A stretch of DNA of 39,535 nt from Bacteroidota bacterium (GCA_035292425.1 DATDQD010000066.1:1-39535); one strand, 5' to 3'. Shown: positions 6,111 through 33,602, counted from the first letter of the stretch. The notes: a model not told the origin generated them from the letters alone. Numbers and translations: made by a program.

Positions 6111-6116
6111 GAATGT

Positions 6117-9623: not shown

Positions 9624-9816
9624 CGGAGTTAAGCATCGCCGCGAGTCGGATATCATCCTCGATGCCTTCCAGCAAATCGTCTCCCTTGAAGTGGCCGAAG
9701 TGTCTCGCCTCCTCATAGAGACTGTCCAGGATCCTGAACTTCATTTCGATGGTGAGATGGTCCGCGGCGCGGGACCATCGATCGAATTCCTCGTATTTAT
9801 CAAGATTCGTAATCAT
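9601..9816 (-). CDS. Small acidic hypothetical protein upstream of the nucleotidyltransferase
   Basis: 71-aa ORF with non-shadow-like composition (MITNLDKYEEFDRWSRAADHLTIEMKFRILDSLYEEARHFGHF...). Overlaps the NTase start by 23 nt. No domain recognised. Confidence 0.4.
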   Translation of the reverse strand: MITNLDKYEEFDRWSRAADHLTIEMKFRILDSLYEEARHFGHFKGDDLLEGIEDDIRLAAMLNSDVSNPPR

Positions 9817-9882
9817 AGATGAATATACGTATCTCCCGTCTGAAAATCACCGGGAGCCCGCCTGAGAAATTTCCGGCTCCCG

Positions 9883-13612: not shown

Positions 13613-14301
13613 CGTGTCCTCTTCACGAGATAGTACACTTTCGGTTCGACTCCCAGGTCCTCCATGACGCGGGATGCCCGGTAATCCCCCGACATCTTAT
13701 AGACGCTGCTCCCCTTGTCTTCGATGTCGCCGAAATAGATCGCGTCGGCGGGACAAATTTCGGCGCACGCCGGCACATATTCCCCGTCATTGATCGGCCT
13801 GTCCTCCTCATCCGCAGTTTCCTTCACTTTCATCAGACGGTGAGAGCAGAACGTGCACTTTTCCACCACCCCCACCATGCGCCTGGATACATCCGGGTTG
13901 AAGCAGGTCGACGCGCCTTCGATCCACGCGGGATCCTTCCAGTTGAATACCTTCGCCGTGAACGGGCATGCGACCATGCAATATCGGCAGCCGATGCATC
14001 GGTGGTACACCTGCGCAACGAGCCCCTCCTCGTTGCGGTAGGTCGCCCCCACGGGGCAGACCCGCGTGCAGGGGGGGTTATCGCAATGGAAACAGGGTTT
14101 CGGCATCCGTTTTATTTCAATGCCCGGATAGTCGCCCCCGTACTCGGTGATCATATCCATCCAGTGCATCACTCTCCCCTGCAGGGCTTCGTCCGGCTCG
14201 ACAATCGGCACGTTGTTCTCCATTTTGCACGCCGCCATGCACGCCCCGCACCCGGTGCACCTGTCCAGATCAATCGCCATTGCCCATTTAGCCATTCGCA
14301 T
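13609..14301 (-). CDS. 4x[Fe-S] ferredoxin subunit (PsrB/DmsB/ActB2-like)
   Basis: Four Cys groups: CTGCGACMAAC, CFHCDNPPC..C, CIGCRYCMVAC, CTFCSHR...CAEIC. Confidence 0.9.
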   Translation of the reverse strand: MRMAKWAMAIDLDRCTGCGACMAACKMENNVPIVEPDEALQGRVMHWMDMITEYGGDYPGIEIKRMPKPCFHCDNPPCTRVCPVGATYRNEEGLVAQVYHRCIGCRYCMVACPFTAKVFNWKDPAWIEGASTCFNPDVSRRMVGVVEKCTFCSHRLMKVKETADEEDRPINDGEYVPACAEICPADAIYFGDIEDKGSSVYKMSGDYRASRVMEDLGVEPKVYYLVKRTR

Positions 14302-14311
14302 ATCCTCGGGT

Positions 14312-16768
14312 TTACGACGTACGGGATATTCTCACTTTGGTCGCCTCGAGGGCGGGCTTCCCGCTCACGAGATCGTGGAGATTTCTCATGATGGTGTTCG
14401 GATTTACGCCGTGGCCTCGCGCGTAACGACCGTACGAGGTGTGTCCCATGCCGAAGGGAATCGCAACGACGTCGGGCATGATCCCGGGGGTGATTTTCGC
14501 TTTCACGCGGACATTCCCGATCGAGGACTCCACCCATACCCAGTCATCGTTCGAGACGCCCGCGGCCGCGGCCGTCTCCGGGTGAATCTCCGCCCACGAC
14601 TCCCACGGCGAATGCACCGAGTATCCGAACAGTTCCTGCATCAGCGGAAGCGCGGCGCCCGCTCCGTCGCGGTTCGGCATCACCTGGAAGGTCACGAGGT
14701 ACATCGGACGGTCGCCCTCGTACGGAACGGCTTCATGGTGCGGCATCATTGCATTGTCGCCGCGCGCGGAGATGTTCAGCCGGCTGAGCACGGATTCGAG
14801 ATTGCGCGACGAACCGGTCTCGTCCAGCTTCAAGAGGAGCCGGTTGAATTCCGAGTTCAGCCTCTGTGAAAAAAATTCGAACTTTCCCGAGGGCGTCGTG
14901 AAAAGCTCGTCGAGGTTCTTCTTCTTCCGCGCCGGATTCCACCAGCCGCCATTGAGAAGGAGCTGCTCCCAGAATTCGTCAAAAGTGGCATAGCGCCCGG
15001 TCTGCCATCCCCGCCGCTGCAGGAATTCAATCCAGGGCTGTTTTTGTCCCTTCGCGACGACCGCGCCCTGCCCGGACCTGAAGAGCCCCTCCGCCGCGTA
15101 ACGCACCTCTTCCCGGTAATCGGTAAAGGCCGCCGCGCTTTTCACCGTTCCGCCTACCCGGCGTGCCAGTTCGGTGAACACATCCCCGGTCCCCCGCGTA
15201 TCGTGCAACGGCTCCACGACCGGCTGCTGTATGCCGAAATGGGAAAATCCCACGGTCGGGACATCGGAGATTTCACCCCAGCTTTCCAGGAACGTATGCT
15301 CGGGCAATATCAGGTGGGCGTACTCGCTCGTTTCGTTGATGATTGAATCGAAGCTCACGACGAGCGGTATCTTCTTCAGCGCGCCGGCGAAATCCAGGTG
15401 GTTCAGCGTCTGGAAGAGGGGATTCCCGTGGTATAAGAAGAGAACGCTCAACGGATACGGACTATCCGCGAGGATATTTTTAGCGAAGCTCTCGATCGAA
15501 AAGTCCGAGAGCGGGAACGGGACATCCCGCGAGCTCGTGAGGGGCTCCGACCGGCTCCCTGCCGCGGCGACCGCGTCGACCTCCACGTCGGGAAGGGGCC
15601 TGACGGGGGCCTGGTCGGTGAAGAAGACCCCTCCCTCTGCCTCGTAATTTCCCAGGAGCGCGTTGAGACTCTGAACCGCCATCTGGGCGAACGTGCCGTT
15701 GGTGTTGTCGACGGCCCCTCCGTCCCCCAGCACGAGGGATTTGGGCGTATTGCCGAGCAGGCGTCCGAGCTCGAGGATTGCAGCGGTCGGCACTCCTGTG
15801 ATTTCGGACACCTTCTCCGGATAGTAGTTCCCGAGCACGATACTCCGGAATCCGAGATGCCTGCTCCCCGAACGGTCCGCCCAGTCCTCGAACCCGAACG
15901 TGCTGCCTCCGACGAATCGGGCGTCATACAGTTCCTCCCTGATGAGGACATAGGCGATCCCGAGCGCCAGCGCCCCGTATGTTCCCGGGCGTATCGGCAC
16001 CCACTTGTCGGCGTTGGCGGCCGTCAGGCTCATCCGCGATTCCACCTGGATGTATTGCGTCTGCAGCTCACGGTGATGACTGTAGAGTTTCGTGTAATAG
16101 ACGGGCGAATAACCCTCCCCGAGAAAATTCGACCCGAAGCTTACAATCAGCTTCGCGTTCAGAAAGTCATAGGCCGGTATCCTGGAATGACCGTGCAGCA
16201 GGGAGTGGGGGACCATGTCGTTCTGCGAGGGGGAAAACCGGAAGTAGTTCGGGGACCCGTACGCTTTCATGAAGCGGGCGATGTGCTGTTCCATCAGTCC
16301 CCGTTCGTCGTATCCGAGCACCGCGACCTGTCGGGATTTTTGTCCGCCGCGAAGTTCAGTGAGTCTTTCGGCGATGATCTTCAAGGCCTCGTCCCAGGTG
16401 ATGGGTTCCCACCTCCCGCTCCCGGGGTTCGCCGTGCGCTTCATCGGGCCCTTCAACCGGTCCGGGTGATATAACATGTGAAGCGCGTTGAGCCCCAACG
16501 AACACATCCCGCCCAGGTTGACGGGATAATGAGGGTTGCCTCTGATGGAGACCGGGAGGCCGTCAACCATCCGGACGCTGATACCGCATCCGCCCGGACA
16601 GAGCCCGCAGATGGTGTTTTTCCAGGTTTCAATCCCCGGTCCGGTCCTGACACGGTGGATCAGCCGGTCCGGTATTTCCAGGACCTCGTCCATCGCGCAG
16701 CCACCCACGGCAAGCGAGACCGAGGTCCCCCCCACCAGTTTGATAAAATCCCGCCGTTTAATTTCCAT
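14312..16768 (-). CDS. Tat-exported molybdopterin-oxidoreductase-family (MopB) subunit
   Basis: 818 aa. Twin-arginine leader MEIKRRDFIKLVGG. N-terminal FS0-type motif CGLCPGGCG...x27..C (CX2CX3C...C). No in-frame TGA. Confidence 0.9.
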   Translation of the reverse strand: MEIKRRDFIKLVGGTSVSLAVGGCAMDEVLEIPDRLIHRVRTGPGIETWKNTICGLCPGGCGISVRMVDGLPVSIRGNPHYPVNLGGMCSLGLNALHMLYHPDRLKGPMKRTANPGSGRWEPITWDEALKIIAERLTELRGGQKSRQVAVLGYDERGLMEQHIARFMKAYGSPNYFRFSPSQNDMVPHSLLHGHSRIPAYDFLNAKLIVSFGSNFLGEGYSPVYYTKLYSHHRELQTQYIQVESRMSLTAANADKWVPIRPGTYGALALGIAYVLIREELYDARFVGGSTFGFEDWADRSGSRHLGFRSIVLGNYYPEKVSEITGVPTAAILELGRLLGNTPKSLVLGDGGAVDNTNGTFAQMAVQSLNALLGNYEAEGGVFFTDQAPVRPLPDVEVDAVAAAGSRSEPLTSSRDVPFPLSDFSIESFAKNILADSPYPLSVLFLYHGNPLFQTLNHLDFAGALKKIPLVVSFDSIINETSEYAHLILPEHTFLESWGEISDVPTVGFSHFGIQQPVVEPLHDTRGTGDVFTELARRVGGTVKSAAAFTDYREEVRYAAEGLFRSGQGAVVAKGQKQPWIEFLQRRGWQTGRYATFDEFWEQLLLNGGWWNPARKKKNLDELFTTPSGKFEFFSQRLNSEFNRLLLKLDETGSSRNLESVLSRLNISARGDNAMMPHHEAVPYEGDRPMYLVTFQVMPNRDGAGAALPLMQELFGYSVHSPWESWAEIHPETAAAAGVSNDDWVWVESSIGNVRVKAKITPGIMPDVVAIPFGMGHTSYGRYARGHGVNPNTIMRNLHDLVSGKPALEATKVRISRTS

Positions 16769-16782
16769 TGTTCACTCCGGGA

Positions 16783-17310
16783 TCAACGATGACAGGAGAG
16801 ACAGTCATTCGATACATTTTTGCTCCTATGGCAATCCATGCAGTTTTCCATCGTCACCTCCAGGAACGCCGAAGTCACCGGCGCCGTCATGGCGCTGACC
16901 ATTCCGTGACACGCGCTGCATTCCAGCTCGCCGCCGACGACATGCCTGCGGTGGGAGAAATAGACATGGTCGGGGACCTGATAGATGTTCACCCAGGGAA
17001 TTTCCTTCTCTTCGGACACGTATTTCAACAGGGCGAGCTCCTCCTGGGATTCGGACAGCGGGGCAGTTTCATGACAGGTACGGCATATTTCGATCGATGG
17101 AAGTGTTGCCGAGGCCATGGTCTCGACGTAGAGATGACACTCCTGGCACTTGAGACCGGCATTTTCGATATGGACCCGGTGGTTGTAAGCGATCGGCTGC
17201 TTCACATCGTCGTCCGAGACAAACGCACACGATACCATAAACACCGGCATCACGAACAGGATGATGTTCACGGTGAAACGGGCAACCCGCGGCCAGTTCA
17301 ACATCGGCAT
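16783..17310 (-). CDS. Membrane-anchored pentaheme cytochrome c (ActA-like)
   Basis: 5 CXXCH motifs (CQECH, CRTCH, CSACH, CMDCH, CLSCH) after an N-terminal TM (FTVNIILFVMPVFMV). Start taken at ATG 17310. The longer ORF to 17388 overlaps the upstream gene. Confidence 0.85.
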   Translation of the reverse strand: MPMLNWPRVARFTVNIILFVMPVFMVSCAFVSDDDVKQPIAYNHRVHIENAGLKCQECHLYVETMASATLPSIEICRTCHETAPLSESQEELALLKYVSEEKEIPWVNIYQVPDHVYFSHRRHVVGGELECSACHGMVSAMTAPVTSAFLEVTMENCMDCHRSKNVSNDCLSCHR

Positions 17311-17338
17311 GGGTAGTCGCACGGATGAATGAAGGAGT

Positions 17339-18502
17339 TTACGGTTTTGTGGATTCCCTGAGATACGAATATAAATTCCGCATCTCATCGCTGGTGAGCG
17401 CCGGCCACTTCTTGTTCTGGGTGATCAGCATATCCTCCATACCGGCAGCGTGATTCCACATCAGCTGGATCATCCGGACCGGTGAATTGAAATGGGTGAT
17501 ACTCATGATGTCGGGACCCCTGCCGGATCCGCCCTTTTCGTGACAGTTGGAACAACCTTTTGACTGGAAGACGGCCCCCCCCTTTTTCCCGTCACCGGGC
17601 TTGTCCTCGAAGTCAAGGAAATACAGATACGCAATCATGTCCGCCATCTCATTCCCTTCGAACTTCGGCCATTCGATCGATTCGTCCTTCATTTTTTGCG
17701 CCATCATCGGACCGTGATTCCACATCAGGCTGGCCGTTTCGGTCACGCTTTTTTTCAACCGGATCTGGGAGAGGTTGGGGGCGAGTATTTTCTTGGCTTC
17801 CCCTTCGGCCACGTGGCATTGATTGCATCCCTTCGACTCGAAGACTTCCTTCCCGTTCTTGGGGTCACCCGGGCTTATTCCCGCCTCGACGCCGGTCAGC
17901 GCCGCCTGCCGGATGTAGACCGTGATGTCGGTGATATCCTGACCAGTCAACATGGGAAAATTCAAACCGGCTTTTTCAATCTGCTCTCTCATCCCGGGAA
18001 CGTGGTTCCACATGGATTGCACAATATAGAGGGGAGAGGGGGTGGTCTTGATGGAGTCGAAGGCGTCGCCCACCGATCCGCCGCCGCCCCCGATCGAATG
18101 ACAGGTTGTGCATCCTTTGCTCTCGAGGACTTTTTTTCCCTTTGCCACCCCGCCCGGTTCGCCGAGATACCGCAGATAGTAGAGGAATCCGAACAGGTCG
18201 AGCATTTCCTTCTCGCTGAATTGCGGCCTCTCCATGCGCATCTGCCTGAACTTGCGGTTCATCTGGGGGGTATGGTTCCAGATGATCGTCGCCAGTTCCA
18301 GCACGCTGCCGAAATAGAGGTCTGAACTCAGGGAGGGACCGGCCGTGCCTCCGTATCCGCCGATCGCATGGCATTCAATACAGCCTTTTTCCTCGAAGAC
18401 CATCCTTCCCTGGAGGGGATTTTGGGGAAGGTCAATTTGCTGGGCGTACAGCGTACCCGCAAAAATAAAAACACAGAGCATCCAGCAGCGATGGAGTGCC
18501 AT
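17339..18502 (-). CDS. Periplasmic cytochrome c made of four tandem class-I monoheme domains
   Basis: Signal peptide. Four repeats of G-C-x2-C-H ... WNH-x-P/A-x-M: CIECH/WNHTPQM, CTTCH/WNHVPGM, CNQCH/WNHGPMM, CSNCH/WNHAAGM. Confidence 0.85.
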   Translation of the reverse strand: MALHRCWMLCVFIFAGTLYAQQIDLPQNPLQGRMVFEEKGCIECHAIGGYGGTAGPSLSSDLYFGSVLELATIIWNHTPQMNRKFRQMRMERPQFSEKEMLDLFGFLYYLRYLGEPGGVAKGKKVLESKGCTTCHSIGGGGGSVGDAFDSIKTTPSPLYIVQSMWNHVPGMREQIEKAGLNFPMLTGQDITDITVYIRQAALTGVEAGISPGDPKNGKEVFESKGCNQCHVAEGEAKKILAPNLSQIRLKKSVTETASLMWNHGPMMAQKMKDESIEWPKFEGNEMADMIAYLYFLDFEDKPGDGKKGGAVFQSKGCSNCHEKGGSGRGPDIMSITHFNSPVRMIQLMWNHAAGMEDMLITQNKKWPALTSDEMRNLYSYLRESTKP

Positions 18503-18524
18503 GGTATTCCTCCTCGGAGGTTGA

Positions 18525-18758
18525 TTAATTCTTCTTTTTCCCTTTTTGTAAACCCACGAAAACGTACGTCAGGACGGATGCCAACGTCGTGAATATCGGT
18601 ATGGCTACGATACTGATGCCGACGGACGCGCCCGGCATGTCTCGGAGTTCAATGGATAATGAAATGAGATTGATGATCCAGAGGGTAATGACGATCACGA
18701 AGAGCCATATCAGCGAGACACTGACGATCTGCGCTATGAAGATGATTTTATTCAGCAT
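18525..18758 (-). CDS. Small two-TM membrane protein (hypothetical)
   Basis: 77 aa, two hydrophobic helices, Lys-rich tail. Visibly more AT-rich than its neighbours. First ORF after a 247-nt gap. Confidence 0.45.
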   Translation of the reverse strand: MLNKIIFIAQIVSVSLIWLFVIVITLWIINLISLSIELRDMPGASVGISIVAIPIFTTLASVLTYVFVGLQKGKKKN

Positions 18759-19005: not shown

Positions 19006-20505
19006 TCAGGTTTTATCGTACAGGACATCCTTCTTATCGGGGGGATGTTTTTCGAGCCGCTTTACGTAGACATAGACCAAAACAGAAAGCGCCGTCATGA
19101 TGAATGTTGCTATCGCCAGGCCCCAGCGCCTGAAATAATATTCCTCGATCGCGATCCGGGCTTCGGTTGTGACCACCGCGGTCACGACGACTCCGTTGTC
19201 GATCACTTCCCGGAATTTCCCGATGTCGAACGAGTGAACCATCGTGCGCGACTCCAGCCTTGCCTGGCGGGCGTCGCGCAATTTAAACTTGGCGTCGGTG
19301 ATTTCCATCCCTTTTTGTTCCGCTTCATTGACGAGCGCCGTCGCACCCTTTTCCGCCTGCTCGAGGCTGTCCGCGAGCGTGCGCATCGTCGACGCCACCT
19401 GATAGGCCTTCGATTCCGGTTCGCCCCCGTGGCACCAGCTGCAGACCGCCTCTTCGGAAACGCCCAGGAGCTTTTCCGAGGCGGCGAGAATTTCGTGGTT
19501 GCCATGGCACGTTTCGCATTCCGGCATGTTCGCGCTGTCGAAGGCTTTCTTGTGCGGGCTGGTTGCAAAGAGCTCGGCGTTGAGGGCGTGGCACGTGCCG
19601 CAGACATGGGACACGGATTCCACGCCCGGGGGAGCCGCAGCGTGATTTCCATGGCAGTCGTTGCAGGCCGGGGCGCCGATATCGCTTTTTTCGAGGAGGG
19701 CGACGCCATGGACGCTCTTGGAATACTCATCGAGCTGGTCCGATGCGATCCCGTATCCCTTCATGTAGCGGGCGTCGGCGTGACAGGTCCCGCATGTCGC
19801 GGGAATGTTCCACGGATAGACGCGGGATTTGACGTCCTTCGCCGACCGGATCTCGTGGCCCCCGTGGCAGCTGGCGCACTCCGCGACCTTCCGATCTCCC
19901 TTCGCGTTCCGTTTCCCGTGAACGCTGGTCCGGTATTTCTCGACCTGATCCACCGGCAATGCGGGATTATAGGTGCGCATGTACGACGGGTTGGAATGAC
20001 ACTTCCCGCACGTTTTCGTCACGTTCAACGGATACACCGGTGAACTGACATTGTCCACGGGGACCACCCCGTGAGCGTTGTGACAGGTCGCGCACTGTAC
20101 GATGCTTTCCTTGCCGCTGACCGATCCCTTTCCGTGCACGCTGGCGGCCAGCAGCTCCTGCTGATCCCACGGGAGATCGGATTTATATTTATTCACCATG
20201 ACCGCGGCGCTGGCGTGGCAGCCCGCGCACATGCGCGTCACGTCGTCTCCTTTCGGGACCCCCGCGAATCCCGCCGCGGGAGCCATCGCCTTCTCCATGT
20301 CGTCCGCGGTGCGATCGCCCCCGTGGCAGTCGGCGCACGAAACACCCTTCTCCCGATGGATGTCGTTCCTGAACAGTACGGCCGGCCCGTCGCCGAGGGT
20401 TTCATGGCACGTTAGGCACTGGTCCTGGGCGTTGCCGTCAGAGTGCGCTGAGCAGCAGATCGCGGCGAGAAAGAGGAGGCGAATAATCCGGAGATGACGT
20501 TTCAT
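19006..20505 (-). CDS. Undecaheme cytochrome c with C-terminal membrane anchor (third subunit of the Rieske/cyt b complex)
   Basis: ATG 20505 ([18 protein letters not shown]...) overlaps the cyt b TGA (ATGA). 11 CXXCH motifs. C-terminal [23 protein letters not shown]. The longer track ORF to 20901 runs into the cyt b gene. Confidence 0.85.
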
Positions 20506-21581
20506 GAGAGCCATCCGAGAATAGTCAGGACGATGATGTACATGACGGCGACTATACCGATATAATTGATCAGTCGGTTTTTCTCTCTGCGGGAACTTTT
20601 TCTGTCCCAGAAAGGAACGATCGTCCACAGGAATCCGGCGAGCCCGAACATGAGGATGCCCAGGACTTCGCCGTCGATGATGACCACCTTCGCCGGGATG
20701 TATTTCAGCGTTTGAAACATGAACATGAAATACCACTCCGGCTTGATGCCGGCCGGGGCGGGGGCGAAGGCGTCGGCTTTCTGTCCCAGCTCCCACGGGA
20801 AGAAGACGGCGAGGATCGCGAGAAGATTCAGCACGATCAGCCACAGGAGCAGGTCCCGCAGCAGAAAATTCGGAAAGAAGGGCATCGTTTTTCCAACCCA
20901 CTCCAGCTCGCCCTCGAGGGCCATGGGTTCGCTCATTCCCTGGCGTTGCACCAGAATGAGGTGGATTCCCAGGAGAACGGTGAAGATTCCCGGGAAAACG
21001 GCGACGTGGAAGCCGAACAGACGCGACAGCGTGGCGCCCGTGACGTCCTCGCCGCCCCGGAGAAAGATCATGATCGGCTTTCCGATGATCGGGACGACCC
21101 CGGCGATATCCGTACCCACTTTCGTCGCGAAGAAGGCGAGTTCATTCCACGGGAGCAGGTATCCGCTGAACCCGAATCCCAGCACGAGGAAAAACATCAG
21201 CATGCCGGTCAACCACGTCATCTCGCGGGGTTTCCGGTAGGCCTTGGTGAAGAAGACGCTGAACATGTGGATCATGGCGGCCAGGACGAAGAGGTTCGCC
21301 GCCCAGCTGTGTACCGACCGGATGAGCCAGCCGAACATCACCTTCGACATGATGAATTTAATGCTTTCGAAGGCGAGTTCTTCGCTGCCCTTATAGTAGA
21401 GCAGAAGGAGTATTCCCGTGACGACCTGGATGATGAACAGGAACAGCGATACCCCCCCGAAGTAGTACCAGACGGAGTGGCTGTGCACCGGCACGTACTT
21501 CTTGCCGAGGAACCCGACGAGGTCCTCCAGGTGGACCCTGTCATTCACCCAGTAGTACAATCGTTTGAGCTTCTTGTTCAT
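20502..21581 (-). CDS. Cytochrome b (b6-like N-terminal part fused to a subunit-IV-like part)
   Basis: His pairs H-x13-H ([16 protein letters not shown]) and H-x14-H ([17 protein letters not shown]). PEWY Qo motif (IKPEWYF). 359 aa. Confidence 0.9.
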
Positions 21582-22036
21582 GCCTTTTTCGATATTAAGA
21601 CCTCCTCACCCTGCACGATCACGCGGAATTCGTCGAGCGGTCTGGGCGGCGGACCGGCGATGTTGCGGCCCGTCAGATCGTAGGTACCGTTATGACAGGC
21701 GCACCAGATCGTTCCTTTTTCACGGCGATACTGAACGGTGCAGTCCAGATGGGTGCAGACCGCCGAGAACGCCCTGAATTCCCCCTCCTGTGTGCGAACC
21801 AGCAGCACTGGTTTCGTTCCGAACTTGATGATCTGACCGCTGTCTCGGTCAAACTCATCCACCTTCCCCGCTTTTACTGTGGATACCTCGACCTCTCCCG
21901 ATTTAGGCGGCTTCAGATACGCAACGATGGGATACAGGACCGAACCGGTGAGCGCGGCCAGGCTGCTCCCCAACATGACCTTAAGGAAATCCCTTTTACC
22001 CGGATTCCGAACTTTATTCTGTTCACTCACTGTCAT
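21578..22036 (-). CDS. Rieske [2Fe-2S] subunit
   Basis: Tat-like leader (GKRDFLK) and the cluster boxes CTHLDC and CACHNG. ATGA overlap with the cyt b start. Confidence 0.9.
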
Positions 22037-22102
22037 TCGAAATAATCCTGTAATCGAATTGAAAATATTTTCTTGAATGCCGAAACGCCAGGGCTGGAAT
22101 TG

Positions 22103-23329
22103 TCATCCCCGGTCAATCGCGACCGCGGATCCGCCATCCGGCGCAGTTTCTCTCCAGGGTGGGAATATCTTAAAAAGGATCGACAAAATCACGAAAGGAA
22201 GCACCAGCAGGAGGAGGGTCATCAATAAACCTTCGAGGCCCGTAATATCCATCTTGTAGGTCGTCAAACCCCGGAAACTCTTCGAAAACATCTGCCCTCC
22301 GATGACCACATTCCACCTGGTGGCAAAGATGCCGAGTTGAATGAGAATCACCGAAACGAAATACAATAATTTTCTCAGTTCATCCTCGAACCTGAATAAT
22401 TTTATGCTGATCATGATCCCGAGCGGCAGCAGCATGCCGAGAAGAACCTGAATGATCCCCAGACTGATAAAGAGTTTGTTCATCACGAGTTCCGATAATA
22501 TTTTTATGGACTCCTCGCTCTCGTACAACCGGTGGATAAAATCAAGAAGTTCAAGGGAGAAATCCACGATGACTGCATAAAACAGAAACGATGCCATCCG
22601 GTCGAGGCATTTCATGTCGATTTTTTCATTCCTGAACGGGAGGATGATCATATAGAGTGTAATGACCAGGGCGATCCCCGAGACGATCGCGGAAAAAAGG
22701 AACACAATCGGCATCAGAACGCTGCTCCACCATGGGTTCGCCTTGATCGATCCGAAAATGAATCCCACATACCCGTGAAGAAGGAACGCCGAAGGAATGC
22801 CGATGATCGTGATCGCCTTGACGACTTTCCTGTCGAAGTTGACCGCCCTCTCGCTGATATCGGTCGAAAAGAGCGCCGTGGCCCGGTGAATCCATTTCAT
22901 GGGAAATTTCTCTGATGCCGACCAGACGATCAGGTCCCTCCGGTAGGTGAACCAGAGTTCGAGGAGCAGGACCACCATCAAATACCACGCATAGACGAAT
23001 CCGAACATCGCCATGGCGGAGCTGAAGTTCGGGTTGAGGAATATTTCATAGGACCGGAAGGGATGACCCAGGTGAAAAAGAAGCGGAAGGGGGGCGATGA
23101 GAAGGAAGGCCAGAGCGGTCAGCAACGAGAGTTTATAGACCGACTGCAGTTCCTTCACGTTGAATACCTTGACGAGAGACGCAAGGATGAAGGCCCCGGC
23201 GACAAGCCCGGTGAGATAGGGATAGACCACGATCAGAATCGACCAGTGTACTTCAATCTCATTCGGATAAATATACCCGCTGACCTGACTGAGTAATTCC
23301 ACAAGTTTGTCCGGGATTGGATTGATCAT
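22103..23329 (-). CDS. NrfD-family polytopic membrane quinone-interacting subunit
   Basis: 408 aa and highly hydrophobic (about 10 TM). Start overlaps the FeS gene stop (ATGA). Noticeably lower G+C than the flanks. Confidence 0.82.
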   Translation of the reverse strand: MINPIPDKLVELLSQVSGYIYPNEIEVHWSILIVVYPYLTGLVAGAFILASLVKVFNVKELQSVYKLSLLTALAFLLIAPLPLLFHLGHPFRSYEIFLNPNFSSAMAMFGFVYAWYLMVVLLLELWFTYRRDLIVWSASEKFPMKWIHRATALFSTDISERAVNFDRKVVKAITIIGIPSAFLLHGYVGFIFGSIKANPWWSSVLMPIVFLFSAIVSGIALVITLYMIILPFRNEKIDMKCLDRMASFLFYAVIVDFSLELLDFIHRLYESEESIKILSELVMNKLFISLGIIQVLLGMLLPLGIMISIKLFRFEDELRKLLYFVSVILIQLGIFATRWNVVIGGQMFSKSFRGLTTYKMDITGLEGLLMTLLLLVLPFVILSILFKIFPPWRETAPDGGSAVAIDRG

Positions 23330-24069
23330 CGCACTTCTCCATCAAGTTCTGAGTAGGAGACTTTTGGCTCGGTGTTGAGTGACGGTTTCAACACGTGCAA
23401 TTTATTCATCCGCTTGAACCTGGCAAGCGGGCTTGCCTTGCTCCGGACATCGCCGAATATCCTGGCCTGTGTCGGGCAGACTTCCACGCAGGCCGGCAGC
23501 ATCTCCCTGGTGAGGCGGTGATAACAGAACGTGCATTTATCGGCAGTCATTGTCTCCGGGTGTATGTAGCGTGCCCCGAAGGGACAGGCCTGGATACAAT
23601 ACCGGCATCCGATGCACCTCTCGCTGTCGACCAGGATGACCCCGTCTTCCGTCATGAAGGTCGCCCCCACGGGGCACACCTGTACGCAGGGAGGATTATC
23701 GCACTGATTGCATAATTTCGGGACAAAAAAGCTCCTCATGATCTCCTTTTCATTGATTACATCCCGCGACCCTGCCAGCCTTTCGTCGATGTTCTGTACG
23801 GCGGCTTCGCCGTCCTTCCGGATAATGTAGCGTTCCACCCAGGTACGGAAGAAGAACGGTTCCCGGGGAACGTTGTTTTCGCTCTTGCAGGCCTCGACGC
23901 AGCTTCCGCACCCGATACACTTGTCTATCTGAATTCCCATCCCGTAGTAGTGGAGAGACGGATCGTATCCCTCAGGTGTTTTCGCCCTGGCTTTTTTCCA
24001 CATGCCCGCCAGAAGACCGGTGGAGACAAGAACAGTTGTGGCCTTCCTAAAAAATTTTCTGCGCATCAT
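23326..24069 (-). CDS. Tat-exported 4x[Fe-S] ferredoxin subunit (NrfC/HmcB/DsrO-like)
   Basis: Leader MMRRKFFRKATTVLV. Cys groups CIGCGSCVEAC, CNQCDNPPC..C, CIGCRYCIQAC, CTFCYHR...CVEVC. Confidence 0.9.
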   Translation of the reverse strand: MMRRKFFRKATTVLVSTGLLAGMWKKARAKTPEGYDPSLHYYGMGIQIDKCIGCGSCVEACKSENNVPREPFFFRTWVERYIIRKDGEAAVQNIDERLAGSRDVINEKEIMRSFFVPKLCNQCDNPPCVQVCPVGATFMTEDGVILVDSERCIGCRYCIQACPFGARYIHPETMTADKCTFCYHRLTREMLPACVEVCPTQARIFGDVRSKASPLARFKRMNKLHVLKPSLNTEPKVSYSELDGEVR

Positions 24070-24070
24070 G

Positions 24071-24865
24071 TCAGTCGAGCTCCGGCATATGAGGATAATG
24101 ACATTGCCAGCAAACGTATTTTTCGTTGTGTGTCTTGAGATCTATCTTCGGCGCATCTTTGACTTTTGAATCATCCGAATGACACCCGCCGCAGAATTCC
24201 CTCCCCGCAGGAATCGTGGCATTTACCGCTCGCGGGGACGTTTTATGTCCCCGGGGAACAGTGTGGCACGTTGTACACGTGAGCATGACGTGCGGCGATA
24301 CGGCCTTCGTCCTCGCAATTTCTTCATGGCACGCCCGGCACTCCTCGGGCACATTGGGGGGTTTCGGGTCATGGGGGTTGTGGCAGCTGATGCACGGTTT
24401 CAGCGGATTGTGAATCGCCGGATTGATCTGGGGAAAACCGGTCGGCCGGGATGGATCGTAGATGTGGCAGTGCGCACAAAATTCTCTCTTCCTGGGCGCC
24501 TCCGGCTTCACGGCTCCGGGGTCCTCCGTATGCATCACCGACGGACCGTGGCAGGTTTCGCATGAGAGATTTTGATGGTACCCTTTTTTCTTCAGCTCGA
24601 ACTCTTCGTGGCAATCGGCGCAGATTGATGATCCGGCATAGCGAACGGGCTTTATCGTTTCTCTCTCCACCGTCGACGCGTAATGGATCGCACTATCCTT
24701 CATCGCCGGAGGAATCAGCATCCGGACGACGATCACTGCCCCGATGATGATGGCAAAGGCGACGATCAGCCTCCAGAGGGCGTCCGGGATCCAGGGCGGT
24801 TTGCTTTTCATGGGAGTTTGACGTTGGAAGTCGTTGGCATCGCTCATTAATCGTTGTAATGACAA
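24071..24865 (-). CDS. Membrane-anchored octaheme cytochrome c
   Basis: 8 CXXCH motifs (CADCH, CETCH, CAHCH, CISCH, CRACH, CTTCH, CGGCH, CWQCH). N-terminal TM ALWRLIVAFAIIIGAVIVV. The alternative ATG at 24847 would give a TAATG junction with the upstream gene. Confidence 0.85.
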   Translation of the reverse strand: MSLQRLMSDANDFQRQTPMKSKPPWIPDALWRLIVAFAIIIGAVIVVRMLIPPAMKDSAIHYASTVERETIKPVRYAGSSICADCHEEFELKKKGYHQNLSCETCHGPSVMHTEDPGAVKPEAPRKREFCAHCHIYDPSRPTGFPQINPAIHNPLKPCISCHNPHDPKPPNVPEECRACHEEIARTKAVSPHVMLTCTTCHTVPRGHKTSPRAVNATIPAGREFCGGCHSDDSKVKDAPKIDLKTHNEKYVCWQCHYPHMPELD

Positions 24866-26340
24866 TCACTGCAGTTCATCTCCATCCAGGCATTCCCGAT
24901 GTCGATCGGGTGCCGGTAGGAAATCCCCCCGAGGGAAATCCTGACGGTGTCGGCTACAAATTGCTGCGCCAGGATTGTGTGGCACAGGTTGCAATCCTTG
25001 GAGAGGACTTTCCCGTCTTCACTCCGATGTTTGCCGTCGTGACACCGGAAACACCCCGGGTAATAGAGGTGACCGATGTTATCGGTGAACCTTTTCCAGT
25101 CTGTCTTCATCTCGGGGAAATAATTGCGGGCGTAGAGCAACTGGACCTGCCCGACGGCACTGTCGAGCGCGGATTTCATCGTGGTCAAAACATCGGGATA
25201 ATGATTACGGTAATAATTCTCCATCGTGATCCGGATCGTGTCCAGCCCGCCCTGTTTCGTGGAATACTCCCCCTCCAGGGCCTCCACCGATATGGCCTTT
25301 ACCGACGGAAGGGCAGGATCGATCCAGCCCAGCGACATGATGTGATTCACCGAACGCGCCGGCGGATGGTAGATGTGCGTCGGTCGGTTATGGCAGTCGA
25401 TGCAGTCCATGCGGCGCGTGAATGCCGCCTCGAGCGAATCTTCCGGGACCTCGATTTCCGCGCTGCGGTAAATCACCTCGGCTCCGTCCGGTGTGCGCGA
25501 CCGGATCCACGGGATGATCTGGCGTTCCCGGTCAAGGGCCCTGTACGTGACCTCGTGCGCGATGTTCATGTGCCAGTGGATTCCGGAGGTCGGGCCCGCC
25601 TCGATATTTCCACCCCCGATTTTCATCAGCAGGTTGATGCTCCACCGGGAATTCCGCTCATCGGCGAGATAGTACGTGTTCACCTTCTGCTTCTCGCTGA
25701 AAAAATGCCTGGGCCAGTGACACTGCTCGCACGTTTCCTGCGCCGGCCGCAGGTTCTCGATGGGGGTGGGAATGGGCGTGGGATATTTATTGAATGCCAC
25801 CGCGTACATCTGGTAGCTTCCCGAGATTTTGGAACGGACGAACCAGTCGGCTCCCGACCCGATGTGGCACTTTACGCAGCCCACCTTCGCGTGCGGCGAG
25901 AACTGGTACGCGGTGTATTCCGGTTCCATCACATTGTGGCATGTTTCACCGCAGAACTGGTCTGAATCCGTATATTCATACGCCTTAAAACTGCCGAACG
26001 CCGAGAAGAGCAGGAGCAGGACGCCGCCGATCGACGTAAACACGAATGCCGCGCGGTGACGGGGATTGTTCAGGTCTATCTTGGGGAGGTGGAGGCCGTG
26101 CGGCTTGCCGATCCGCTCGCGGTAGTACTCCCGCACCAAACCAAAGATCATCACGGCGATCCCGAGGAGCAGGAACACCGGCAGGATGACAAACGTGATG
26201 ATGCCCATGTAGGGCTTTTGCTGCTCGGCCATCGTCTCTATCAGGATCAGGAAGAGGATCAGCCCGAAGCTGACGCCGGCGATCGCCGTGCCGAGAAGAG
26301 TGATGAGATTATAGAATGAAGGGGGAAATATGCGCTTCAT
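24847..26340 (-). CDS. ImcH-like inner-membrane multiheme cytochrome (3 TM plus NapC/NirT-like 7-heme domain)
   Basis: 497 aa. Three N-terminal TM helices. Six CXXCH motifs (CVKCH, CEQCH, CIDCH, CFRCH, CNLCH, CSDCH) plus one CX3CH (CGETCH). This matches what I recall of Geobacter ImcH (3 TM, 7 hemes, about 500 aa). Confidence 0.72.
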   Translation of the reverse strand: MKRIFPPSFYNLITLLGTAIAGVSFGLILFLILIETMAEQQKPYMGIITFVILPVFLLLGIAVMIFGLVREYYRERIGKPHGLHLPKIDLNNPRHRAAFVFTSIGGVLLLLFSAFGSFKAYEYTDSDQFCGETCHNVMEPEYTAYQFSPHAKVGCVKCHIGSGADWFVRSKISGSYQMYAVAFNKYPTPIPTPIENLRPAQETCEQCHWPRHFFSEKQKVNTYYLADERNSRWSINLLMKIGGGNIEAGPTSGIHWHMNIAHEVTYRALDRERQIIPWIRSRTPDGAEVIYRSAEIEVPEDSLEAAFTRRMDCIDCHNRPTHIYHPPARSVNHIMSLGWIDPALPSVKAISVEALEGEYSTKQGGLDTIRITMENYYRNHYPDVLTTMKSALDSAVGQVQLLYARNYFPEMKTDWKRFTDNIGHLYYPGCFRCHDGKHRSEDGKVLSKDCNLCHTILAQQFVADTVRISLGGISYRHPIDIGNAWMEMNCSDCHYND

Positions 26341-26456
26341 AGGCCGGAGTCGTCAAGAACAGGCGGTAATGTAATGATTGCCGCGCATAAAGGAAATAGC
26401 CCGGACGGAGCGGATGAGATGAAATATTCCGATTTTTCCGGATTCTTCTTCACGAC

Positions 26457-27425
26457 TCATCGATAGGCAAAGAGCATCGCGTAAATGATCCAGAGCACCA
26501 CGCTGAAGCCGATGGTCAGCGCCGTCCAGCCGAACGCCTTGACGGCCCGTGTGACGATCGGCTGGTAGGGTTCGACGAGGCGGGATTCGAGCCGGCCGCT
26601 TTTGACGAGTTCCTCGTATTCCGCCGGCTTGTCCAGCGCGAATTCGTCAACGTCCATACGCCCCGTGAAGATGACGATGTCCATCGGGAATTTTTCCGGG
26701 CGGAGATGGGTGTTGAAGAAGTGCACGGTGAAGATAAACCCCACGGCGAGCAGGGCCTCGTCGCTGTGGATGATGGTGGCCACGTTGAGCAGCGAGCCGG
26801 GCATGAAGTTGGTGAAGAGTTCCGGGAACCAGAGCATCAGGCCGGTCGAACCGATGACCGCCACGCCCCAGAAGACGGCGAAATAATCGAACTTCTCCCA
26901 GTAGGTCCACCGGCCGAACCGCGGGCGCGGTCCCCTGCCGACGAACCACTTCACAGAGCCGATGAAATCGGAAAGGTCCTTCCCGTTGAACATCATCGAG
27001 TCGGGGCTGAAGATCATCGACTTCCACGTCCGTCCATCCCGCTTCTTCATCCTCAGGACGTCGATGACATGGATGAAGAAAACGGCGAACATGATGACCG
27101 CGGCGAACCTGTGGAGGGATCCCGCGCTCTCGAACCCGCCGAGGAGGTGCGAGAGCAGAACCGCCCAGCCGGTGTATGAAAACTTGAGCGTCAGGCCGGT
27201 GAGCGCGAGCGTCAGAAAGCTGATGATGAGGAAAATGTGCAGTGCCCTGTTGAGCCTGCTGAAACGGAGGAATTGACGTTCTCCCGCGGGAGAGCTTTCC
27301 TCCGCAGGAAAGTACGATGACCCTGCCTCCGTGGCCGTCGGCGTGGAAGGGGACGGGGATGGGGACGGCGCCGGTGCGGAACCGCCGGAGGAGTCCTTCT
27401 GCGCACTGTCGTTCCGGTTATCCAT
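26457..27425 (-). CDS. Diheme cytochrome b, HydC/FdnI/PhsC-like (CbcB-like)
   Basis: ATG 27425 (MDNRND...) overlaps the upstream stop by 8 nt. Four to five TM helices with conserved His (RALHIF, SLHRFAAVIMFAVFFIH, IIHSDEA, TVHFF). Clearly paralogous to the C-terminal domain of 29433..31751. Confidence 0.8.
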   Translation of the reverse strand: MDNRNDSAQKDSSGGSAPAPSPSPSPSTPTATEAGSSYFPAEESSPAGERQFLRFSRLNRALHIFLIISFLTLALTGLTLKFSYTGWAVLLSHLLGGFESAGSLHRFAAVIMFAVFFIHVIDVLRMKKRDGRTWKSMIFSPDSMMFNGKDLSDFIGSVKWFVGRGPRPRFGRWTYWEKFDYFAVFWGVAVIGSTGLMLWFPELFTNFMPGSLLNVATIIHSDEALLAVGFIFTVHFFNTHLRPEKFPMDIVIFTGRMDVDEFALDKPAEYEELVKSGRLESRLVEPYQPIVTRAVKAFGWTALTIGFSVVLWIIYAMLFAYR

Positions 27426-33537: not shown

Positions 33538-33602
33538 CGCCCGGGGGTACCATGAAACATAAGATTTTCCCCCTTCACGGTCAACAGGCGGCGGCGGACA
33601 GG

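What the first reader, a model, noticed from the sequence alone, without database searches (positions are those of the whole stretch)
19006..22036. Rieske / b6-type cytochrome b complex whose c subunit is an 11-heme, C-terminally anchored cytochrome
The Rieske protein (CTHLDC / CACHNG) and a fused b6 plus subunit-IV cytochrome b (H-x13-H, H-x14-H, PEWY) are followed by an undecaheme cytochrome with a C-terminal TM helix, joined by an ATGA overlap. That protein sits where cytochrome c1, cytochrome f or a di/tetraheme c normally is.

The b6 position that carries the heme-ci Cys in b6f and Firmicutes enzymes reads VWYYFGG here, with no Cys.

Multiheme partners for Rieske/cyt b complexes are known in Deltaproteobacteria and Planctomycetes. 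An 11-heme partner with coiled-coil-like C-terminal sequence before the anchor ([19 protein letters not shown]...[13 protein letters not shown]) looks unusual.
Basis: partly seen in the sequence, partly recalled or inferred. Interest (0 to 1): 0.7.

Follow-up and report, generated by a model that had tools for sequence, protein, structure and literature searches.

The report
Rieske/cytochrome b complex with 11-heme subunit
Three overlapping genes encode a quinol-oxidising Rieske/cytochrome b complex whose usual one-heme cytochrome c1/f partner is replaced by a membrane-anchored 11-heme cytochrome, a lineage variant of a very widespread but apparently unstudied family of 9- to 18-heme partners.

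Summary
On the minus strand lie a Rieske protein (21578-22036), a fused b6+subunit-IV cytochrome b with no cysteine at all (20502-21581), and a 499-aa cytochrome with 11 CXXCH, a signal peptide and a C-terminal anchor (19006-20505). ATGA overlaps join all three.

The 11-heme protein is very probably the c subunit. Rieske-cyt b-c synteny holds in 76 of 80 Ignavibacteria genomes; the other 4 are cut by contig ends. The same holds for 9-heme relatives in metagenomes, where no locus with enough flank lacks the two genes. In at least three lineages the cytochrome b, or its subunit-IV part, is fused directly to the multiheme domain.

It belongs to a superfamily of 572 clusters (50% identity) at E<=1e-30. 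The common form has 9 hemes. Ignavibacteria carry 11 through one extra diheme module, and a Calditrichota-type form has 18.

The "coiled-coil" is a conserved helical hairpin carrying an invariant histidine. No solved homologue exists; the best fold match is anammox HAO-type octahemes (TM 0.35-0.38).

Precedents are the Geobacter (10/12-heme) and anammox (6/8-heme) Rieske/cyt b clusters. ImcH-like and CbcL-like genes lie alongside. Assembly and function are inferred, not shown.

The parts
21578..22036 (-). Rieske [2Fe-2S] subunit, 152 aa, with an N-terminal TM anchor (KRDFLK Tat-like motif)
   Evidence: Pfam Rieske E 5e-15 and TM_PetC E 9e-7. NCBIfam b6f iron-sulfur subunit E 3e-20, below cut-off. 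Best solved relatives are the Kuenenia Rieske 9rk4 (E 5e-16) and b6f PetC.
21692..21757 (-). Cluster-binding boxes CTHLDC (res 94-99) and CACHNGTY (res 112-119). Both disulfide Cys are present. Gly stands at the position of the potential-raising Ser, and the Tyr is kept.
   Evidence: Direct reading. Alignment to 9rk4 and PetC.
20502..21581 (-). Cytochrome b, 359 aa, a fused b6-like and subunit-IV-like protein with 7 predicted TM helices
   Evidence: Pfam Cytochrome_B E 3e-48 and Cytochrom_B_C E 4e-11. The best PDB match is cytochrome b6, E 1e-55. H91-x13-H105 and H192-x14-H207. TM segments.
21462..21464 (-). Tyr40 at the position of the heme-ci Cys of b6 (WYYFGG). The whole protein has no Cys.
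   Evidence: Alignment with b6. Cys count 0, and WYYF in 120/120 homologues.
20730..20741 (-). Qo-site motif PEWY (res 281-284)
   Evidence: PEWY in 118 and PEWF in 2 of 120 homologues.
19006..20505 (-). Undecaheme cytochrome c, 499 aa, the proposed c subunit. The start ATG at 20505 overlaps the cyt b stop (ATGA).
   Evidence: Only generic multiheme Pfam/NCBIfam hits. No PDB sequence homologue at E<=0.01. AF2 model pLDDT 88.2.
20434..20505 (-). Sec-type signal peptide (approximately res 1-24)
   Evidence: Hydrophobic N-terminus [22 protein letters not shown]. The cleavage site is not predicted by any tool.
20323..20418 (-). N-terminal heme pair (CXXCH at 30 and 57) with only one conserved distal His (H50). 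Conserved Met70/Met74 follow, so this is a candidate His/Met or open-site heme.
   Evidence: Conservation in A1 and A3. The ligand assignment is inference.
20011..20244 (-). Extra diheme module (hemes 3-4, res 88-165) that distinguishes the 11-heme from the 9-heme form. It is a paralogue of the following module.
   Evidence: Pairwise and multiple alignments with 9-heme relatives. Low pLDDT only in this stretch of the model, which was built with mostly 9-heme rows.
19429..20010 (-). Hemes 5-11: three diheme modules (CXXCH ... SVHG ... CXXCHxxH) plus a last heme. This is the core shared with the 9-heme family.
19120..19410 (-). Conserved helical hairpin with a long third helix (helices 366-397, 403-425, 428-486). 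It carries invariant H424 in the motif [17 protein letters not shown].
   Evidence: AF2 secondary structure with pLDDT 97-98. H424 is invariant in 98 sequences. The domain is detected in most superfamily representatives.
19063..19119 (-). C-terminal TM anchor (res 463-481), followed by a basic cytoplasmic tail
   Evidence: Hydropathy 2.24. A C-terminal TM segment is present in nearly all full-length family members.
22103..31814 (-). Context, not core. Upstream respiratory genes: NrfD-like, NrfC-like, 8-heme c, ImcH-like (3 TM + CX3CH + 6 CXXCH), cyt b561/FdnI-like, 19-heme c, and a 13-heme+FdnI-like fusion (CbcL-like).
   Evidence: Architectures compared with PMC6295460. Variable presence in related loci.
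12269..18758 (-). Context, not core. Downstream genes: a 77-aa 2-TM protein, a tetra-(class I) cytochrome c, and a QrcABCD/ACIII-like module.
   Evidence: They co-occur as a block in 5 genome loci and several metagenome loci.

Best explanation
The three genes encode one membrane complex. It is a menaquinol-oxidising Rieske/cytochrome b enzyme of the b6 lineage (fused b6+subunit IV, no heme ci), and its cytochrome c1/f position is filled by a C-terminally anchored 11-heme cytochrome.

Proposed mechanism (inferred): menaquinol is oxidised at the PEWY Qo site. One electron goes through the mobile Rieske cluster into a membrane-near heme of the undecaheme. It then runs along a chain of mostly bis-His hemes to periplasmic or outer multiheme cytochromes and reductases. 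The other electron crosses hemes bL and bH to the Qi site, so the step conserves energy by a Q cycle.

The 11-heme subunit is a 9-heme core (two N-terminal hemes, three diheme modules, a last heme ligated from a conserved helical hairpin, and a TM anchor) enlarged by one duplicated diheme module. In this organism the likely sinks are the neighbouring multiheme network and, beyond it, insoluble or periplasmic acceptors.

Shown here: the sequence features, synteny, family structure and fusions. Inferred: assembly, direction of electron flow, heme ligation and the identity of the acceptor.
For: - Canonical Rieske and cyt b features and the PEWY motif are present.
- ATGA overlaps join both gene junctions.
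- The topology matches c1/f: a signal peptide plus a C-terminal anchor with a basic tail.
- Rieske-cyt b-c11 order holds in 76 of 80 species-level genomes. The other 4 are cut within about 1 kb upstream.
- For 9-heme relatives, 58 of 80 metagenome loci show both genes beside the cytochrome. All others are truncated at a contig end, and none with adequate flank lacks them.
- A stand-alone Rieske-cyt b-18-heme operon sits among unrelated genes, so the trio is the unit.
- Natural fusion proteins exist. P0468/P0471 have a full cyt b (E 3e-139 to the window's) running about 17 residues after its last helix into the 9-heme domain. P0367/P0477 and P0319 (cyt b or subunit IV plus 9 hemes) and P0294/P0476 are further cases. 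They come from independent data sources.
- Ten non-motif His are invariant in the close 11-heme alignment A1, matching 10 of the 11 hemes. A conserved Met lies near the remaining one.
- Menaquinone (futalosine-type) biosynthesis genes lie in the same window.
- Precedent: the anammox complexes carry anchored hexa-/octaheme cytochromes in place of cytochrome f, and their subunits co-migrate (PMC12954380).
Against: - No experiment on any member was found. Co-purification, stoichiometry and activity are unknown.
- AlphaFold-Multimer could not be run, so no Rieske/heme docking geometry is available.
- The heme nearest the Rieske cluster is not identified.
- Bis-His hemes are often low-potential. 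This could make a Q cycle from menaquinol thermodynamically tight.
- The best fold matches are to enzymes (HAO-type octahemes), so a catalytic role for one heme is not excluded.
- No terminator or promoter evidence defines the transcript.
Confidence: 0.65

Rival explanations
1. The multiheme protein is an enzyme rather than a wire. It would be an HAO/NrfA/ONR-like catalytic cytochrome tethered to the Rieske/cyt b core. The complex would then be a quinol-driven reductase (for example of nitrite, hydroxylamine, NO or sulfur oxyanions), with one five-coordinate heme as the active site.
For: - With the confident model, the only notable PDB matches are anammox HAO-type octahemes (6t5e E 3.9e-3; 4n4j E 1.7e-2). 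Foldseek probability is 1.00 over about 390-405 columns.
- Profile-sequence hits to ONR, NrfA and HAO are local.
- One heme lacks a conserved distal His.
- Some pipelines name homologues 'nitrite reductase c552'.
- HAO-like octahemes accompany Rieske/cyt b genes in anammox bacteria and Caldithrix (PMC12954380, PMC5317091).
Against: - TM-scores are only 0.35-0.38 and rmsd is about 7 A.
- Pfam Cytochrom_C552 scores 16 bits against a cut-off of 24.
- There is no CXXCK.
- The repeat structure is that of electron-transfer diheme modules, each with its own two His.
- Heme number varies from 8 to 18 by adding or removing modules. This is typical of wires, not of active-site scaffolds.
- Conserved Met residues can supply the missing ligand.
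Confidence: 0.12
2. The undecaheme is an independent, membrane-tethered electron carrier or capacitor. It is co-transcribed with the Rieske/cyt b core but is not a stable subunit, much as green sulfur bacteria use separate cytochromes with a two-subunit Rieske/cyt b core.
For: - The closest phylogenetic neighbours, the Chlorobia, are described as having Rieske/cyt b operons without a c1 gene (PMC3362086 and PMC5600118).
- Operon linkage alone does not prove assembly.
- The gene order is c-Rieske-b in 13 metagenome loci.
Against: - Fusions of cyt b or subunit IV to the multiheme domain in at least three lineages imply 1:1 physical coupling.
- The association is universal, whatever the neighbouring genes are.
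- The C-terminal anchor mirrors c1/f.
- In the anammox analogues the anchored multihemes co-migrate with the core (PMC12954380).
Confidence: 0.1
3. The complex normally runs in the opposite direction. Electrons taken up from reduced extracellular or periplasmic donors (Fe(II), cathodes, reduced humics) would enter through the 11-heme chain and be pushed to the quinone pool by a reversed, pmf-driven bc reaction, as proposed for uphill electron flow in acidophilic iron oxidisers.
For: - Multiheme conduits are bidirectional, and CbcL/MtoC-family neighbours occur in both iron reducers and iron oxidisers (PMC6295460).
- The operon is widespread in soil and sediment metagenomes.
Against: - Nothing in the window points to lithotrophy or CO2 fixation.
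- The ImcH-like neighbour belongs to a family so far linked only to quinol oxidation (PMC6295460).
- Reverse flow into low-potential menaquinone is energetically costly.
Confidence: 0.08

Closest known systems
Anammox Rieske/cytochrome b complexes Kustd1480-1485 and Kuste4569-4574 (Kuenenia stuttgartiensis)
   Same: - They have a b6-type core in a menaquinone organism.
- Cytochrome f is replaced by a membrane-anchored hexa- or octaheme cytochrome c.
- Kustd1485 is described as having long alpha-helices next to its TM helix (PMC12954380).
- Among solved structures, the Kuenenia Rieske protein 9rk4 is the closest to the window's Rieske.
- HAO-type octahemes are the best fold match of the undecaheme.
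   Different: - The anammox complexes have split b6 and subunit IV, bind heme ci, and include an NAD(P) oxidoreductase subunit. None of these is present here.
- Heme number is 6-8 rather than 11.
Geobacter conserved cluster GSU2930-2937 (cytochrome bc-type; 'Ext' families in NCBIfam)
   Same: A Rieske protein and a b6-like cytochrome b are encoded with large multiheme cytochromes of 2, 10, 12 and 5 hemes. The cluster was proposed as an inner-membrane quinol oxidase feeding extracellular electron transfer (PMC2825233). The window's cyt b scores 206 bits against ExtP.
   Different: - The cyt b is short (about 205 aa) and several separate cytochromes are present.
- The undecaheme matches ExtN/ExtO only at E about 1e-3, so the c proteins belong to a different family.
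- No C-terminal helical-hairpin anchor is reported there.
Cytochrome b6f and Firmicute menaquinol:cytochrome c reductases (QcrABC)
   Same: - H-x14-H spacing in helix D.
- A seven-helix b6+subunit-IV architecture.
- The PEWY Qo motif.
- A PetC-like Rieske protein.
- Best sequence matches to b6.
- From established knowledge, Bacillus QcrC is a subunit IV-cytochrome c fusion. This parallels the subunit IV-multiheme fusions found here.
   Different: - b6 and subunit IV are fused here.
- There is no heme-ci Cys (Tyr40, and no Cys at all).
- There is no cytochrome f or class I monoheme/diheme c, and no small Pet subunits are evident.
Green sulfur bacterial Rieske/cytochrome b complex (subfamily J of Dibrova et al.)
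   Same: A sister lineage within the Bacteroidota/Chlorobi group. It has a long unsplit cyt b that keeps the two Gly of the CxGG motif and has PEWY (PMC5600118, PMC4122944).
   Different: - Those operons are described without a c-type subunit gene. Here a multiheme c is always attached.
- Direct phylogeny against Chlorobia sequences could not be done.
ImcH, CbcL/MtrH/MtoC and CymA quinol oxidases of extracellular electron transfer
   Same: They are inner-membrane devices that pass quinol electrons to periplasmic multiheme cytochromes. ImcH-like and CbcL-like genes sit directly beside this operon, both in the window and in many related loci.
   Different: Those are single-polypeptide cytochromes without a Rieske protein or a Qo/Qi pair, and they are thought not to run a Q cycle. 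They are unrelated in sequence.
Hydroxylamine oxidoreductase / octaheme cytochrome c family, OcwA and MtrA
   Same: These are all-alpha multiheme folds with long C-terminal helices. The best Foldseek hits are HAO-type proteins. Local profile matches hit MtrA (6r2q), OcwA (6i5b), ONR, NrfA and HAO.
   Different: - No full-length homology: TM-score is below 0.4 and only stretches of 90 residues or fewer align in sequence.
- The heme number and module order differ.
- There is a C-terminal TM anchor.
- No catalytic-site signatures were identified.

Membership tests
Rieske/cytochrome b (bc1/b6f) superfamily complex | Rieske [2Fe-2S] protein with CxH...CxxH ligands, two disulfide Cys and an N-terminal membrane anchor | tested here: met
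   CTHLDC and CACH. Pfam Rieske and TM_PetC. PDB matches to PetC and bc1 ISPs.
Rieske/cytochrome b (bc1/b6f) superfamily complex | Cytochrome b with four His ligands for hemes bL/bH in helices B and D, and a PxWY Qo motif | tested here: met
   H91/H105, H192/H207 and PEWY 281-284. Pfam Cytochrome_B E 3e-48.
Rieske/cytochrome b (bc1/b6f) superfamily complex | Physical assembly of the subunits and quinol:cytochrome c oxidoreductase activity | not testable with these tools
   Only genetic linkage and fusions are available.
Cytochrome b6f-type / Firmicute b6c-type complex | H-x14-H spacing in helix D and seven TM helices in b6+subunit IV | tested here: met
Cytochrome b6f-type / Firmicute b6c-type complex | Heme ci bound by the Cys of the CxGG motif | tested here: not met
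   YFGG with Tyr40, and no Cys in the protein. 120/120 homologues are the same.
Cytochrome b6f-type / Firmicute b6c-type complex | b6 and subunit IV as separate polypeptides | tested here: not met
   A single 359-aa ORF covers both Pfam domains.
Cytochrome c1 / cytochrome f | A single c-type heme in a c1 or f fold, with a C-terminal anchor | tested here: not met
   11 CXXCH, no Cytochrom_C1 or cytochrome f Pfam hit. Only the topology (signal peptide plus C-terminal anchor) is shared.
C-terminally anchored multiheme partners of Rieske/cyt b (unnamed superfamily defined here) | Two N-terminal hemes, a series of diheme modules (CXXCH...SVHG...CXXCHxxH), a last heme, a helical hairpin with an invariant His, and a C-terminal TM helix | tested here: met
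   Alignments A1, A2 and A3. Representative survey.
C-terminally anchored multiheme partners of Rieske/cyt b (unnamed superfamily defined here) | The gene is adjacent to Rieske and cyt b genes | tested here: met
   ATGA overlap in the window. 76/80 genome loci and 58/80 metagenome loci show it; the rest are truncated.
NrfA (cytochrome c552 nitrite reductase) | CXXCK active-site heme and a match to PF02335 above threshold | tested here: not met
   No CXXCK. PF02335 scores 16.2 bits against a cut-off of 24.1.
HAO / octaheme cytochrome c family | A conserved eight-heme core fold with a five-coordinate catalytic heme | tested here: inconclusive
   Foldseek 6t5e E 3.9e-3, TM 0.35-0.38. Local profile hits to HAO at E about 6e-5. 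Heme coordination cannot be read from the tools.
Anammox-type Rieske/cyt b complexes | An NAD(P) oxidoreductase subunit encoded in the operon | tested here: not met
   No such gene lies in or next to the trio.

The most novel reading that the evidence does not exclude
Rieske/cytochrome b complexes with anchored 9- to 18-heme subunits would be a fourth class of inner-membrane quinol oxidase for extracellular or periplasmic multiheme electron transfer, alongside CymA, ImcH and CbcL, and the only one of the four that would conserve energy through a Q cycle. They appear widespread in the FCB-group lineages seen here (Ignavibacteria, a Calditrichota-type form, one Zixibacteria protein) and in soil and sediment metagenomes. 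On this reading the heme chain hands electrons directly to the periplasmic cytochrome network, and module number (9, 11, 18) tunes reach or storage capacity.
Probability: 0.3. Interest if true: 0.75.

Novelty: new variant of a known kind. Interest (0 to 1): 0.5.

Why it matters
How anaerobes with low-potential menaquinone couple quinol oxidation to distant or insoluble acceptors, and whether that step conserves energy, is an open question in bioenergetics. The review of such quinol oxidases that I read lists only CymA, ImcH and CbcL (PMC6295460).

This locus is one example of a very common arrangement: a Q-cycle-capable Rieske/cyt b core hard-wired, and in some lineages fused, to a long heme chain. 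It is often encoded beside ImcH-like and CbcL-like genes. I found no biochemical or structural description of it.

It also bears on an earlier evolutionary suggestion. From Ignavibacterium album, which has only alternative complex III, it was suggested that ACIII was probably ancestral in the Chlorobi and that Rieske/cyt b complexes were acquired later in the green sulfur bacteria (PMC3362086). The operon's presence in hundreds of Ignavibacteria genomes is relevant to that suggestion, but no phylogeny was run here.

A cultured carrier, Stygiobacter electus, makes the hypothesis directly testable.

Tried and rejected
- First AF2 run with 21 close homologues gave pLDDT 64, and its Foldseek hits were not interpretable. 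It was replaced by a 98-sequence alignment that includes 9-heme forms.
- The search for homologous proteins saturates with close Ignavibacteria sequences for both the cytochrome and cyt b. A profile of 9-heme forms again returned mostly 11- and 18-heme proteins. As a result no outgroup cyt b sequences were obtained, and no cyt b or Rieske phylogeny (for example against Chlorobia) could be built.
- Taxon names for the 9-heme forms are almost absent. One Zixibacteria name was recovered, and Calditrichaeota for the 18-heme form.
- Literature searches found no description of this operon: Stygiobacter electus (0 papers), 'undecaheme'+Rieske, 'nonaheme/nine-heme'+Rieske, and Ignavibacteria+Rieske+multiheme. 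Dibrova et al. 2013 (BBA) is not held, so prior mention there cannot be excluded.
- The fusion P0269 (790 aa) was set aside as doubtful. It keeps a signal-peptide-like helix after a lysine-rich linker (probably A-rich DNA, not inspected), which is topologically awkward and could be an assembly frameshift.
- The promoter/terminator scan gave nothing useful on the minus strand.
- I considered the 387-aa tetra-(class I) cytochrome downstream as the true c1-equivalent and rejected it. It travels with the Qrc-like block, not with the Rieske/cyt b pair.
- NrfA membership was rejected (no CXXCK, sub-threshold Pfam score).
Full report
**1. What is in the sequence**

Three genes lie head to tail on the minus strand.

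- The Rieske gene (21578-22036, 152 aa) ends ...AAGGCATGA, and the ATG of the next gene overlaps its stop.
- The cytochrome b gene (20502-21581, 359 aa) ends ...CTCTCATGA, and again an ATG overlaps the stop.
- The third gene therefore starts at 20505 ([11 protein letters not shown]...), not at the upstream GTG of the mechanical ORF. It ends at 19006 and encodes 499 aa.

The Rieske protein has CTHLDC and CACHNGTY and a PetC-like N-terminal anchor. The cytochrome b matches Pfam Cytochrome_B and Cytochrom_B_C. It has H91-x13-H105, H192-x14-H207, PEWY at 281-284 and seven hydrophobic segments.

Aligned to spinach and Synechocystis b6, NIFYCLGG corresponds to SVWYYFGG. The heme-ci cysteine is therefore Tyr40. 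The protein contains no cysteine at all, and all 120 closest homologues read WYYFGG.

The third protein has 11 CXXCH and no CXXCK. It has a hydrophobic N-terminus and one C-terminal TM segment (463-481) followed by [12 protein letters not shown].

**2. Is the undecaheme really tied to the Rieske/cyt b pair?**

A scan of one genome per species found at least 591 genomes with a relative. The best 80 are all Ignavibacteria/Bacteroidota MAGs, plus the cultured Stygiobacter electus 09-Me.

tblastn with the window's proteins shows Rieske-cyt b-cytochrome in that order in 76 of 80 loci. The other four are cut less than about 1 kb upstream. The genes outside the trio vary: ImcH-like, NrfCD-like, CbcL-like, Qrc-like or unrelated.

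In 77 of the 78 complete ORFs the cytochrome has 11 CXXCH.

**3. The family is much larger than the 11-heme form**

An exhaustive search of 50%-identity representatives gave 3582 clusters at E<=1e-3 and 572 at E<=1e-30. Most are about 420 aa with 9 CXXCH. They align to residues ~160-487 of the query, that is, hemes 5-11, the helical region and the anchor.

Variants with 8, 10, 11, 13 and 15-18 hemes exist. A form named Calditrichaeota in NCBI has 18.

Alignment shows how the Ignavibacteria protein relates to the 9-heme core. It equals that core plus one extra diheme module (residues 88-165), a paralogue of the module that follows it.

The repeating unit is CXXCH-x(4-6)-[YV]M...DQ...Y..SVHG...CXXCH-x-x-H. 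It occurs four times, preceded by a two-heme head and followed by a last heme.

**4. Do the 9-heme relatives sit with Rieske/cyt b too?**

A metagenome scan with the 9-heme alignment returned 80 loci.

- 58 have both genes beside the cytochrome: 45 as Rieske-b-c and 13 as c-Rieske-b.
- 9 have one of the two genes at a contig end.
- 13 have neither, and in all 13 the relevant side is within about 450 nt (543 nt in the c-Rieske-b case, L091) of the contig end.

No locus with adequate flank lacks them. The linked cyt b proteins are 51-64% identical to the window's in nearly all loci; two 11-heme loci reach 73-79%. The 18-heme form sits in a stand-alone three-gene operon between helicase/methylase and peptidase genes.

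**5. Fusion proteins**

Several representatives are natural fusions.

- P0468 (757 aa, JGI) and P0471 (ENA) have a complete cyt b (E 3e-139 to the window's, PEWF). It runs about 17 residues after its seventh helix straight into the 9-heme domain and C-terminal anchor.
- P0367/P0477 (692 aa, from two sources) and P0319 do the same with a PPWY-type cyt b or subunit IV.
- P0294/P0476 (about 1015 aa) have extra helices in between.

These junctions are topologically coherent: seven helices end on the P side. They mirror the known subunit IV-cytochrome c fusion of Bacillus QcrC (established knowledge). One fusion, P0269, looks like a possible assembly artefact and is not used. Together with the synteny, this is strong indirect evidence for a 1:1 physical complex.

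**6. The protein itself**

It has only generic multiheme Pfam/NCBIfam hits. It has no PDB sequence homologue at E<=0.01.

A profile of 98 family members finds only local matches of 90 residues or fewer. These are to MtrA (6r2q chain A, mislabelled in the file), OcwA (6i5b), ONR, NrfA, NrfB and HAO.

An AF2 model from the 98-sequence alignment is confident (pLDDT 88.2, pTM 0.77). Only the extra module is weak. Its C-terminal third consists of three long helices (366-397, 403-425, 428-486), and the last runs into the membrane.

H424 is invariant in all 98 sequences. In the close 11-heme alignment (A1) the motif around it, [17 protein letters not shown], is largely invariant (R410, Q414, R420, T421, V423), and its ...R..VH.F core persists in the 98-sequence consensus. 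So the 'coiled-coil-like' stretch is a conserved domain that probably supplies an axial ligand. This ligand role is inference.

Foldseek against the PDB gives anammox HAO-type octahemes as the only notable hits: 6t5e at E 3.9e-3 and 4n4j at E 1.7e-2, with TM 0.35-0.38. That is a distant resemblance, not membership.

Ten non-motif histidines are invariant in the close 11-heme alignment A1 (H50, 124, 145, 196, 217, 266, 288, 318, 337, 424), against 11 hemes. In the 98-sequence alignment seven of them stay invariant (H50, 196, 217, 266, 288, 337, 424); H124 and H145 belong to the extra module and H318 varies. The shortfall falls in the N-terminal pair, next to conserved Met70/Met74. That suggests one His/Met or open-site heme, which would be a natural entry point from the Rieske cluster. 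This too is inference.

**7. Context**

The window carries futalosine-type menaquinone genes: UbiA-, UbiD-, MqnA/D- and radical-SAM-like.

Upstream of the trio, on the same strand, are:

- a 13-heme+FdnI-like fusion;
- a 19-heme cytochrome;
- a b561/FdnI-like protein;
- a 497-aa protein with three N-terminal helices, one CX3CH and six CXXCH;
- an 8-heme/NrfC/NrfD set.

[quoted passage not shown] The same two gene types recur next to 9-heme operons in unrelated metagenome contigs.

Downstream lie a four-domain class I cytochrome and a QrcABCD/ACIII-like block. These also recur.

**8. Most likely function**

The best reading is a menaquinol:multiheme-cytochrome oxidoreductase working by a Q cycle, with the undecaheme as exit wire (confidence about 0.65).

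The rivals are:

- a tethered HAO/NrfA-like enzyme (0.12);
- a co-transcribed but separate carrier (0.10);
- reverse operation for electron uptake (0.08).

The Rieske box has Gly where high-potential proteins have Ser, but keeps the Tyr. From published mutagenesis of bc1 Rieske proteins (my own knowledge) this points to a low-to-middle potential suited to menaquinol.

**9. Comparison with what is known**

Rieske/cyt b clusters with large multihemes were noted in Geobacter (2, 10, 12 and 5 hemes; PMC2825233).

In anammox bacteria, anchored hexa-/octahemes replace cytochrome f and co-migrate with the core. One of them, Kustd1485, is described as having long helices that wrap the complex (PMC12954380). 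The window's Rieske protein is closest, among solved structures, to a Kuenenia Rieske.

The present complex differs in four ways:

- a fused, heme-ci-less cyt b;
- no NAD(P) oxidoreductase;
- a distinct c-protein family;
- modular heme numbers.

The genome papers on I. album and M. roseus report no Rieske/cyt b complex in those type strains (PMC3362086, PMC3534657). That may explain why this operon has escaped description.

**10. Verdict**

The finding is real and correctly read. It is less singular than supposed, but it exposes a very widespread, apparently uncharacterised class of bc-type complexes. I rate it a new variant of a known kind, with interest 0.5.

Noticed in passing
window 24847-26340 (-) and 29433-31814 (-): There is a 497-aa protein with three N-terminal TM helices, one CX3CH and six CXXCH, which is the ImcH architecture. 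There is also a 793-aa protein with 13 CXXCH fused to an FdnI/HydC-like b-type domain, which is the CbcL/MtrH/MtoC architecture. Homologues of both recur beside 9-heme and 11-heme Rieske/cyt b operons in many unrelated contigs.
   Followed up: partly
window 27418-29436 (-): A 672-aa secreted cytochrome with 19 CXXCH motifs sits next to a b561/FdnI-like membrane protein (26457-27464). Together with the other genes, the island encodes about 66-67 c-type heme sites.
   Followed up: no
window 12269-18758 (-): A Qrc/alternative-complex-III-like block lies downstream. It contains a 5-heme anchored cytochrome, a Tat-signal molybdopterin-like subunit, an FeS subunit and an NrfD-like subunit. A four-domain class I cytochrome c and a conserved 77-aa two-helix protein precede it. 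The block travels as a unit and is found next to Rieske/cyt b/multiheme operons in several lineages (for example L008, L018, L019, L051, L091, L115).
   Followed up: partly
window 22103-24865 (-): An 8-heme anchored cytochrome, a Tat-signal NrfC-like FeS protein and an NrfD-like membrane subunit form a quinol-interacting module with no catalytic subunit. It is inserted between the ImcH-like gene and the Rieske gene in only some relatives (L002, L008, L010, L025, L029, L036, L051).
   Followed up: no
L060 versus window 19006-31814: One Ignavibacteria MAG is 79-88% identical to the window for the four upstream genes but only 59-61% for the Rieske protein and the undecaheme (cyt b 78%). The island therefore looks mosaic, with the trio exchanged or diverging separately.
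   Followed up: no
window 2846-10716: Menaquinone biosynthesis genes of the futalosine type lie next to the respiratory island: UbiA-like, UbiD-like, a radical-SAM/MqnA-D fusion and an MqnA/D-like gene. An AbiEii/DUF6036 nucleotidyltransferase gene (9042-9716) interrupts them.
   Followed up: no
window 32827-33606 (-): A Crp/FNR-family regulator is encoded just upstream of the multiheme island on the same strand. It is a candidate redox or oxygen regulator of the cluster.
   Followed up: no
L161/L162 4418-8280; proteins P0391-P0393, P0242: This Calditrichota-type relative is an 18-heme protein that looks like a tandem duplication of the 9-heme unit. It sits in a stand-alone Rieske-cyt b-cytochrome operon.
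   Followed up: partly
proteins P0258, P0282, P0289, P0311, P0315: Some 8- or 9-heme family members continue past the TM anchor into long cytoplasmic extensions. One of these (P0315) has a sequence that looks like a histidine-kinase/ATPase domain, judged by eye only. This hints that the heme domain is sometimes used as a periplasmic redox sensor.
   Followed up: no
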